DNA from: Octopus sinensis
Lineage: Eukaryota
DNA length: 64,000 nucleotides
Assembly: GCF_006345805.1 (NCBI RefSeq)
Contig: NC_042998.1
Location: 151,838,001 to 151,902,000, forward strand
Direction: 5' to 3'
Below are positions 59,257 to 61,784 of the stretch, piece after piece (the stretch's first letter is position 1; each line of letters starts with the position of its first letter). The translations under genes and the position numbers were made by a program. The notes beneath the pieces are model-generated. The model searched no databases and had not been told where the DNA came from. It worked only from the letters and a program-made list of their open reading frames with translations.

Positions 59257-59516
59257 CATCATCATCATTATTATTTAGAACTGATTTTCCAATTAAAGAA
59301 TAAATTGTATCCTACTTGAACAATAATTTGAATTTCGAATAACAAAATTCTATGCAGCATATTTTGCTTTTTTCTTCCAATATATAAGGGAAAATTCCAT
59401 TCCTGGGTAACGCCGGATGCTTCTGCTGGTATAAAGTAAAAGAAGGAAAATGCACACAGTTTACAAAGTTTTAGCATATTTTTAAATATATTTTATAAGT
59501 GAAAGTGTATTGTGTT

Positions 59517-59549
59517 TGTCGACCAGTTTCGCTTTCACTAATCATGCCA
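59517..59549 (-). ncRNA. Minimal type I hammerhead-like motif, A3-U8 variant
   Basis: tggc ATGATTA gt-gaaa-gc GAA actggt C gaca. Confidence 0.5.
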
Positions 59550-61669
59550 TTGAACTTATTGTAATTTCGTATTTTCTTAAGAAGATTTTAGTTCATATCT
59601 TTGGAAGGAAGTTTGTGAATGAATTAACAAGTAGAAAATCTGAACGGAGGTAATTGGTGATCGTGATTATTCGGGACAGCGGATATAATTACTCCTTTTT
59701 TGCGGGGTGGAGTATAAATAAATGTACAAAAACTCAAAAGCTAAAGAAGTGAAATGAAATATGTAGTGATAGATATGTGATCATGAATTAAAATATATAC
59801 TGGGACCAAAGTTGGTCATGCGTTTATATTCAGACGTGTTCTGTATTTTTCGATGAATAAATTTTCTTGTACGAAAATTGTTTCTTTGCATTAGTAAATG
59901 GGAAAAACTGTGAAGACTGGTTGGATATTACCTGCACATCTCTCTATGTATTCACTTAAAGGAATCTCTCTGTAATGCGGGAACCAGATCTGTTCCTTAT
60001 GTAGTGTGGTTTTCCGTCTCAGTGTCATATTTGTTGTCCTATATAGTTATGTCTGCAACCTGAACAATTTATAAAATAAATTAGATTCTCTTAAGCACAA
60101 GTAAAGTTAGTTTTAATTGTGAACCTTTTTCCTTGTTTGAATAGGGATTCTGAGACTTCCAGTAGGTTGGAGCATGTTCCACAGTTTGGGCGTCCGCATT
60201 TTTTAACCATTAGTTTCGCGGTTGTTGTGTAAAGTTTCGCATTTGTTAGAAGTCTTTTCAGTGGTTTGTTTTGCTTTTTGTATTTGATGAATTTATGTGT
60301 TTTCAGAATCTTGTACAGTTTTTGATCCCTAGTAAGCACTGATAGATTTTGCACAAGGGTGTTATATACTTCAGTGTTTCTAGGGTTGTGAGTTGATATA
60401 TAAGGTAGTGTTTTGAGATGAGGTGTGGTGTTTTGTTGCACTTAGTGTCTTGATGCCTAATTTCTTGGCATGCTTAACTCCATCGTCTATAAGTGAGGGT
60501 AGATATTACCTTTCGGTTAGTGTTGCTTTGAGGTCTTGAAGACGGATGTCCCAAGTATTTCCATAAGAAACTATTGTGCAAAACTCTCTCTGGGATATTT
60601 CTCTTGATGTGTATCGCGTGGCATGAGCTAAATAGGAGATACTGCTTCGAATCCGTTGGTTTAAGATAAATGTCAGTTACAATTTTGTTATTGACCTTTT
60701 TATCGTAATATCTAAGAAAAGAAGCTTTTATTTGCTATATTCCATTGTAAATTGAATGTTAGGGCTTATATTATTTAGTATTGATTTAAATTCCAAAGGT
60801 TTATAAATGGTCTCATTTCAACTGATAAAGCAATCATCCAGATATCTTTTCTAGTTCTCTCTTGTATAATGGTGAAATTGATATCCATATTTTTGCAGTA
60901 ACAGTTCATACATGGTAAATTCAAAATATCCCATTATTAGGTTCGCAAGAATAGGAACTGCTTTCGTGCCCCTCGCAATTTCACATTTTTTACGATAGTA
61001 GGTGTCGTCAAATAGAAAATAAAAATCTGGTTCATGCGTTCCAGAAGTACTTCCAACCAGAACTTTTGCTTCTATTCCATAGTCATGTGGGATGTTGGTG
61101 TAAAGATTAATGACATCGAAGGAAACCAATAATATCGGTTTATTAATTGTTTTTTGGTAGGTGCTCAAGCATGTCTAGATCGTCTCTAATGAAACTTTTG
61201 ATATATTTCAGTAAGGGTTTCAGTAGGTTGTCTAGAAAATTGCTTAGGCGGTGGGTTTCACAGGCTGGGTCAACTATAATGGCTCTCATTTTTGTATTTG
61301 CCTGATAATTGTTTGAAGGTTTTATTAACTATCTTGCTCTTGTGTATTTTAGGTTTACATTTAAGACTCAGTTTTCATTTAAGGTTCATGATATAATCTA
61401 TTTCTTTCCTTGTCAAGCCTTTTTATTTGTAGAAGAATTAAGGATGAAAGATTTCTCATTGTTTTTTGATGTTTATAGTTTACAGCTTTTTCGTAGAAGA
61501 TATCGTTTTCTAGCATGGGTAATACTAGGATTTTGCAGTATTCTGAGTTCATCAGGACGACGACACTTCTTTTGTCGGCTTCTTTAATTGTCAGTTCTTT
61601 GTCGTTTTGTAGTTCACACAACATGGACAAAAATCTTCTTAAGAAAACACGAATTTACAAATATTTCAA

Positions 61670-61702
61670 TGTCATGAATAGCGAAAGCGAAACCGGTCGA
61701 CA
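61670..61702 (+). ncRNA. Minimal type I hammerhead-like motif, A3-U8 variant
   Basis: tgtc ATGAATA gc-gaaa-gc GAA accggt C gaca; stem I tgtc/gaca and palindromic stem III. Confidence 0.6.
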
Positions 61703-61784
61703 AACGCAATACCCTTTCACTTATAAAATATAAAATATAAAAGATATATTAAAACTATGTAAACTCTGTGCATTTTCCTCCCTT

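What the first reader, a model, noticed from the sequence alone, without database searches (positions are those of the whole stretch)
59487..61732. Penelope pLTR hammerheads in which C3-G8 is replaced by A3-U8 in both copies
Seen: both inverted terminal copies have a minimal type I skeleton, but the cores read AUGAAUA and AUGAUUA. Position 7 and some stem positions differ between copies while A3 and U8 are shared. Established: positions 3 and 8 form a tertiary Watson-Crick pair in the active fold. Inference: a natural compensatory swap rather than random decay, invisible to CUGANGA searches; the palindromic stem III suggests action as a dimer.
Basis: partly seen in the sequence, partly recalled or inferred. 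Interest (0 to 1): 0.7.

Follow-up and report, generated by a model that had tools for sequence, protein, structure and literature searches.

The report
Octopus Penelope hammerhead with A3-U8 core
A decayed jumping gene, most likely from an octopus, carries a miniature self-cutting RNA motif in which the usual C-G pair of the catalytic core is replaced by an A-U pair; this swap is the normal state of the element's family in four related organisms, but cutting has not been shown.

Summary
The locus is a broken, 5'-truncated Penelope-like element (Neptune-type linker, closest named proteins from Octopus) with an inverted terminal repeat. Each arm holds a 33-nt minimal type I hammerhead with A3 and U8. 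Two copies alone prove little: two given sites match by descent with probability 0.78, and the left arm's stem changes are decay. In contigs of four runs from four organisms (527-897 laid per run), position 7 varies in 45-73% of depth, while no variant row is shown for positions 3 or 8 (50 of 90 rows were hidden). Depth peaks 3-6-fold over the motif, and subfamilies with different flanks appear to keep it. The right core's best homodimer fold is exactly the double hammerhead. The two arms here lie on opposite strands, so they cannot be each other's partner. Most likely this is a selected, slow, dimer- or protein-assisted ribozyme variant (0.6); a fold kept without cleavage is the main rival. 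Natural U3-A8 is published; I found no natural A3-U8, but three key papers were not available. One mutational scan found that only G3-C8 rescues. Verdict: new variant of a known kind.

The parts
59430..61793 (-). Whole insertion: 5'-truncated, decayed Penelope-like element (ORF on the minus strand) with an inverted copy of its 3' end attached at the 5' side; both 3' ends point outward
61623..61793 (+). Inverted terminal copy (pLTR end), ending in a (TA)n run at about 61788
   Evidence: family contigs also stop fitting at 61779 and go on in T- and TA-rich letters (table 7)
59430..59596 (-). Sense pLTR end, downstream of the ORF
61670..61702 (+). Minimal type I hammerhead, intact copy: A3 at 61674, N7 at 61678, U8 at 61679, predicted cut between 61698 and 61699
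   Evidence: family variation
59517..59549 (-). Minimal type I hammerhead, decayed copy: A3 at 59545, U8 at 59540; one stem I mismatch and two C-to-U changes
59894..61621 (-). Broken RT plus GIY-YIG endonuclease ORF with many stops and frameshifts; DK motif near 61576
   Evidence: three-frame translation; tblastn with P0005, P0001, P0003; P0005 has RVT_1 and GIY-YIG matches
60172..60198 (-). Cx4CxxC zinc-finger linker between RT and endonuclease (Neptune/Nematis type)
   Evidence: motif definition and Neptune alignment in PMC8557442 and its supplement
60037..60084 (-). GIY-YIG motif remnant (LIY ... YIG) with the CxxC of the CCHH finger

Best explanation
A Neptune-type Penelope-like family of octopuses carries in its pLTR a minimal type I hammerhead whose tertiary pair 3-8 is A-U instead of C-G. 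The variant became fixed in the family and was kept in later subfamilies because the catalytic fold is still under selection. It cannot close stem III as a monomer. Two motifs pair through the palindromic stem III to form a double hammerhead, either neighbouring pLTRs in a tandem transcript or two molecules, and cut after GUC, probably slowly and with help from the element's protein. Shown: sequence, family state, predicted fold. Inferred: selection, pairing of A3 with U8, dimer formation, cleavage. This locus itself is a dead twin-ended insertion whose two motifs face opposite ways.
For: (4 of 24 listed runs; organisms A, B, C, E; 527, 897, 644, 714 contigs laid at 80% or better): A>T at position 7 in 94, 107, 101, 106 contigs (45-73% of depth); no row shown for 61674 or 61679. 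The bin holding position 8 has 93-97% of peak depth, so at most 8-17% could be clipped before it; the bin holding position 3 has 71-79%. The 6 rows shown inside the 33-nt motif are N7, loop 2, C17>U, two C>U changes that leave G-U pairs, and one stem I change; none falls on the 11 conserved core positions. Depth over the motif is 3.2-6.5 times that of the two flank bins next to it. A form about 32 nt shorter behind the cut site (10 of 12 joint rows shown give 32) has U opposite the stem I position that shows G>A in 25-30 contigs per run: a probable G-C to A-U compensation, not phased. A loop-2 variant has 20-36% of depth in three runs and 0 in the fourth, and 48-78% of it must also run across position 7. 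The homodimer minimum-energy fold of the right core equals the double hammerhead (-14.9 kcal/mol). A Penelope hammerhead is partly rescued by a G3-C8 swap (PMC11167929); natural U3-A8 exists (PMC3088659, PMC4209133).
Against: No cleavage data and no RNA evidence. In a full pairwise scan of one type III hammerhead only the G3-C8 swap rescued and all other double mutants in that region were low (PMC9901934). In the Anolis element cleavage needs protein and is dispensable for insertion in vitro, so selection on cleavage may be weak. With flanks, the right copy prefers a hairpin that ties up U4-A7 (dimer -19.3 versus -16.5 kcal/mol for the bare double hammerhead). The family data are summed contig depths, unphased, with 50 of 90 rows hidden, and limited to sequences at least 80% alike. 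Six variant rows missing all 11 core positions of 33 has probability about 0.07 by hand arithmetic, so that point is weak alone. No relative with C3-G8 or an intermediate was found, so the direction of the swap is assumed.
Confidence: 0.6

Rival explanations
1. Fold kept, catalysis lost or negligible: A3-U8 preserves the hammerhead shape as a dimerisation or protein-binding module of the element's RNA, and cleavage no longer matters.
For: Low activity of non-G-C swaps in the pairwise scan; cleavage dispensable in vitro and no RNA ends at the cut site in the Anolis element; Naiad elements thrive without hammerheads.
Against: G12, A13, A14, the A15.1-U16.1 pair and a non-G at position 17 show no variant row. 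The 3-8 pair forms only in the active conformation (PMC3884650 passage), so keeping it complementary points to catalysis.
Confidence: 0.22
2. Neutral hitch-hiking: a founder element took two hits that killed the ribozyme, and the family spread anyway; the motif looks conserved only because the copies are young.
For: Hammerheads are not needed by all Penelope-like clades; depth is dominated by a few high-depth contigs.
Against: Two random hits among 11 core positions land on 3 and 8 and stay complementary with probability about 1 in 165 (hand arithmetic, post hoc). The conserved block ends where the motif ends, and both flanks differ between subfamilies (tables 2, 5, 7).
Confidence: 0.08
3. A3 was selected because A3-U4-G5 is a start codon (of the main ORF or of a regulatory upstream ORF), and U8 followed as compensation.
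For: The swap creates an AUG. In the Anolis element the ORF starts inside the hammerhead and insertions end 111-118 nt later; here the arm ends about 116 nt after A3.
Against: The frame closes after 19 codons in the right arm and 24 in the left. Family contigs show 1-3 nt deletions at 61731-61743 and a form 32 nt shorter, so the frame is not kept. A spliced reading cannot be excluded.
Confidence: 0.07
4. Local decay: the family has the usual C3-G8 core and A3/U8 is private to this insertion.
For: Both arms come from one insertion event and are 12-15% diverged, so sharing two sites is expected (P=0.78); 50 rows of the variant table were hidden.
Against: About 100 contigs per run differ at the neighbouring position 7 with no row for positions 3 or 8. 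The 40 rows shown include ones with at most 5% of depth and 1-3 contigs, and all have a contig at least 32 letters from its end, so a common C3 or G8 class should have been listed.
Confidence: 0.03

Closest known systems
Minimal type I hammerheads (min-HHR) in the pLTRs of animal Penelope-like elements (PMC4209133)
   Same: Position in the pLTR downstream of the RT-endonuclease ORF, type I topology, short stem I, G10.1-C11.1 pair, palindromic stem III that needs a dimer, second copy on the opposite strand at the 5' end of a truncated element (their Fig. S4A legend).
   Different: A3-U8. Of the 56 motifs in their Fig. S3, 53 have C3-G8, 2 have U3-A8, 1 has U3-G8, none has A3-U8, and none is from a cephalopod. 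Stem II here is only 2 bp and there is no extra base after A9.
U3-A8 hammerhead variants (Schistosoma Cercyon elements, about 1,300 hits, PMC4209133; several examples in PMC3088659)
   Same: A natural, high-copy compensatory change of the 3-8 pair that C3-G8 descriptors miss.
   Different: U3-A8 keeps pyrimidine-3/purine-8 and is reached by two transitions through a U-G wobble. A3-U8 inverts the purine and pyrimidine and needs two transversions, or a route through G3-C8.
Hammerhead of the Anolis Poseidon element PAc (PMC11167929)
   Same: pLTR hammerhead about 100 nt before the fixed 3' end of insertions; AT-rich targets; priming on both target strands would explain two outward-facing ends.
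   Different: PAc has C3-G8, belongs to Penelope/Poseidon and has measured, protein-assisted cleavage; nothing is measured here.
Neptune clade of endonuclease-bearing Penelope-like elements
   Same: RT followed by a C-terminal GIY-YIG domain, Cx4CxxC linker, end in a microsatellite, inverted 5'-truncated copy.
   Different: Clade not confirmed by a tree; Nematis shares the linker.

Membership tests
Penelope-like element, endonuclease-bearing | One ORF with RT and C-terminal GIY-YIG endonuclease | tested here: met
   tblastn to P0005 across RT and endonuclease, E 1e-59; P0005 matches RVT_1 (below the curated cut-off) and GIY-YIG; the window's own five ORF pieces gave no RT or GIY-YIG Pfam match
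Penelope-like element, endonuclease-bearing | Pseudo-LTR, direct or inverted, with 5' truncation | tested here: met
   layout described in PMC8557442
Neptune clade | CX2-5CxxC linker between RT and endonuclease | tested here: met
   60172-60198; definition
Neptune clade | RT groups with Neptune references in a tree | not tested
   no reference set was held as sequences
Minimal type I hammerhead of PLEs | Stems I and II with type I topology and G10.1-C11.1 | tested here: met
   right copy complete; left copy has one stem I mismatch and a U-G pair in stem II
Minimal type I hammerhead of PLEs | Core U4 G5 A6, A9, G12 A13 A14, A15.1-U16.1, H17 | tested here: met
   both copies; the only variant row at these places is C17>U
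Minimal type I hammerhead of PLEs | C3 and G8 as letters (consensus CUGANGA) | tested here: not met
   A3 and U8 in both arms and in the family
Minimal type I hammerhead of PLEs | Watson-Crick complementarity between positions 3 and 8 | tested here: met
   A-U; that the pair forms is inferred
Minimal type I hammerhead of PLEs | Palindromic stem III that allows a double hammerhead | tested here: met
   right core: 6-bp duplex -8.3 kcal/mol, dimer minimum equals the double hammerhead; left core: -3.2 and +5.0
Minimal type I hammerhead of PLEs | Self-cleavage at the NUH site | not testable with these tools
   needs an assay
Rfam hammerhead families | Match to a covariance model | tested here: not met
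   no hammerhead family up to E=10 in 55000-64000; the C3-G8 motif at 63580 was missed too, so the miss is not due to A3-U8 alone

The most novel reading that the evidence does not exclude
A high-copy animal retroelement family has used, across several octopus species and subfamilies, a catalytically active hammerhead with the purine-3/pyrimidine-8 pair A3-U8, the swap that a laboratory scan found inactive, made workable by dimerisation or by the element's own protein. Together with a second family in the same window that has U at position 6 in both copies, this would mean that octopus Penelope elements hold a set of core variants missed by consensus searches, and that some elements filed as ribozyme-free are not.
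Probability: 0.4. Interest if true: 0.55.

Novelty: new variant of a known kind. Interest (0 to 1): 0.36.

Why it matters
It would add an A-U form to the known natural states of the hammerhead's 3-8 tertiary pair, in a family with many copies. It gives a natural test of whether base identity or only pairing matters at the general-acid position 8. It shows that descriptors fixed on CUGANGA undercount ribozymes in Penelope-like elements, which bears on the open question of what these ribozymes do: a family that swapped the pair rather than lost it argues that the active fold is under selection. The advance is modest, because natural U3-A8 and engineered swaps are already published.

Tried and rejected
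No whole genome is held for this window, so no direct copy count or phased alignment was possible. No RNA holder was listed; this says nothing on expression. A pattern with positions 3, 7 and 8 left free gave 1 hit in viral contigs and 22 in metagenome contigs. None of the 23 has A3-U8; 6 have C3-G8 and most of the rest look like chance matches in GC-rich DNA, so this is no test of animal elements. Family-specific patterns found 0 matches in viral contigs and in prokaryote genomes. Protein-led locus searches found no relative. Earlier findings of the scan held nothing like this stretch and only other kinds of Penelope or phage hammerhead. Rejected: the two-copy argument (P=0.78); reading the left arm's stem changes as compensation; a dimer between the two arms in one transcript (opposite strands; a read-through RNA would instead form an arm-to-arm duplex of -184 kcal/mol); A3-U4-G5 as start of the main ORF (closed frame). 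Summed contig depth was not used as a copy number.

Full report
1. What is in the sequence. The finding's ends are an inverted repeat, 59487-59596 against 61623-61732, 88% complementary; BLAST extends it to about 59430-59596 and 61623-61793 at 85%. Between the arms the minus strand holds a broken ORF. It matches an unnamed 733-residue protein, P0005, across RT and endonuclease (E 1e-59); P0005 has RVT_1 and GIY-YIG matches. Four of the five proteins found with the RT piece are labelled Octopus sinensis or O. bimaculoides, at 47-56% identity, so the host is most likely an octopus (inference). A Cx4CxxC motif precedes the GIY-YIG motif, which marks Neptune and Nematis elements (PMC8557442). The layout, a 5'-truncated element with an inverted copy of its end, is typical of the group.

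2. The motif. The right arm reads in sense on the + strand: a 4-bp stem I, the core AUGAAUA at 61674-61680, a 2-bp stem II with a GAAA loop, GAAA, a palindromic stem III and a GUC triplet with C17 at 61698. The left arm reads in sense on the - strand with core AUGAUUA at 59545-59539. A strict scan that allows any Watson-Crick 3-8 pair finds the right motif alone in the window, against 0.025 hits per resampled window (5 of 200). Rfam reports no hammerhead among 117 matches up to E=10, but it also misses a C3-G8 motif at 63580, so the miss is not specific to A3-U8.

3. What two copies can and cannot show. The arms differ at 13 of 110 positions, so two given sites agree with probability 0.78. Four differences lie in the motif: position 7, a U-to-G change that breaks a stem I pair, and two C-to-U changes at CpG sites. 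They make the left copy worse: its double-hammerhead energy is +5.0 kcal/mol against -14.9 for the right copy. This is decay after insertion, not covariation. The arms lie on opposite strands, so one transcript carries one motif and its antisense, and would form a long arm-to-arm duplex. Any dimer belongs to tandem source elements or to two molecules.

4. The family test. No genome is held. I listed 24 public runs and laid four, from coded organisms A, B, C and E, on 61600-61785 at 80% likeness, listing differences from 2%. 527, 897, 644 and 714 contigs were laid. Position 7 reads T in 94, 107, 101 and 106 contigs, 45-73% of depth. No row is shown for position 3 (61674) or 8 (61679). The table hides 50 of 90 rows and does not state its ranking rule. 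The rows shown include ones with at most 5% of depth and 1-3 contigs; all lie between 61648 and 61744 and have a contig at least 32 letters from its end. Under ranking by share or by distance from the end, a common C3 or G8 class in mid-stretch should have appeared; a minor one cannot be excluded. Clipping does not explain the blank: the bin with position 8 has 93-97% of peak depth (at most 8-17% clipped before 61680) and the bin with position 3 has 71-79%. The test covers only sequences at least 80% alike. Within that limit A3/U8 is the family state in all four organisms.

5. Signs of selection. Depth over the motif is 3.6-6.5 times that of a 5' flank bin and 3.2-4.4 times that of the 3' bin next to it (a further 3' bin, 61754-61760, reaches half of the peak in one run), and loose ends gather at 61668 and 61700, the motif's edges. 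Six rows fall inside the 33-nt motif: position 7, loop 2, C17>U, two C>U changes that leave G-U pairs, and G>A in stem I. None falls on the 11 conserved core positions; by hand that has probability about 0.07, which is weak alone. Ten of the 12 joint rows shown describe a form 32 nt shorter behind the cut site, and 9 of 12 have U at the place that pairs with 61671; G>A at 61671 occurs in 25-30 contigs per run. Together they suggest a G-C to A-U compensation in a second subfamily, but the two changes are not phased. A loop-2 variant has 20-36% of depth in three runs and none in the fourth, and at least 48-78% of it also covers position 7; this suggests a later expansion that kept U8. These are inferences from summed contig depths.

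6. Mechanism. Stem III cannot close in a monomer. For the right 33-nt core the minimum-energy homodimer is exactly the double hammerhead, with a 6-bp intermolecular stem III. With flanks a hairpin over U4-A7 competes and wins by about 3 kcal/mol in this copy. Minimal Penelope hammerheads cut weakly and only as multimers or with an extended stem III (PMC4209133); the Anolis motif cuts only with the element's protein, is partly rescued by G3-C8, and is dispensable for insertion in vitro (PMC11167929). I put 0.6 on a slow, dimer- or protein-assisted ribozyme, 0.22 on a fold kept without cleavage, 0.08 on neutral spread of a dead motif, 0.07 on selection for the AUG that A3 creates (frames close after 19 and 24 codons) and 0.03 on local decay. 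Against the best reading, a full pairwise scan of one type III hammerhead found that only the G-C swap rescued (PMC9901934). From memory, not from a call, Przybilski and Hammann 2007 found every Watson-Crick pair cleavage-competent in two type III ribozymes, with a context-dependent preference for pyrimidine-3/purine-8.

7. What is known. Natural U3-A8 is reported in PMC3088659 and in Schistosoma Penelope-like elements. Among the 56 motifs of Fig. S3 of PMC4209133, 53 have C3-G8, 2 U3-A8, 1 U3-G8 and none A3-U8. All 34 rows of file S2 of PMC8557442, one from an octopus Hydra-clade element, have C3-G8. Full-text searches for A3-U8 and related spellings, for hammerhead with Penelope and Octopus and broader ones showed no natural A3-U8; the 2026 octopus repeat paper has no occurrence of 'hammerhead' in text or supplement. 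Three papers that could hold such a case are not in the library: Lunse et al. (about 150,000 variants, number recalled), Seehafer et al. 2011, and Przybilski and Hammann 2007. Figures could not be seen, and the preprint's supplements are closed. The novelty claim is limited accordingly.

8. What I saw of each paper. PMC4209133: main text parts 1-2 of 4, supplement parts 1-2 of 3. PMC11167929: passages and part 2 of the main section. PMC8557442: passages, supplement searches and supplement part 2. PMC3088659, PMC9901934, PMC3884650, PMC6765202, PMC6155905: passages. PMC13282606: passages and a supplement search. PMC2920678: part 1 of 2. bioRxiv 10.64898/2026.07.22.740005: part 1 of 5 and passages. 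All others: search listing only.

9. Verdict. It is a new variant of a known kind, with cleavage unproven. Interest 0.36.

Noticed in passing
window 25560-27561 (-) and 63505-63686 (+): A second, different Penelope-like family (RT end and GIY-YIG with CxxC linker). Its pLTR hammerhead at 25661 (-) and a second copy at 63580 (+) both have C3-G8 but U at position 6 in place of the conserved A, and differ at position 7. Possibly another family-wide core variant; the copy at 63580 has also lost U16.1. Not tested beyond these two copies.
   Followed up: partly
window 61700-61746: Family contigs show a form about 32 nt shorter directly behind the cut site, and loose ends that stop at 61779 in T- and TA-rich letters, marking a fixed 3' end about 80-90 nt after the cut site.
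   Followed up: partly
window 61620-61746: Five joints between opposite strands in family contigs (table 5) point to other insertions with very short inverted arms.
   Followed up: no
window 62564-62874: A perfect 155-nt inverted repeat with a 1-nt spacer: a fold-back element or an assembly artefact.
   Followed up: no
window 56933-58354: Fragments that look like a Pif1-type helicase as in Helitrons (a Walker A motif near 57240; family name recalled).
   Followed up: no
window 58995-59183 (-): Fragment that looks like a LINE reverse-transcriptase start, between two (TTA)n runs (assignment recalled).
   Followed up: no
L003, L006, L007, L017, L022: Metagenome loci with a C3-G8 core and the same stem I and stem III letters; L007 and L017 are AT-rich and may be true minimal hammerheads.
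   Followed up: no
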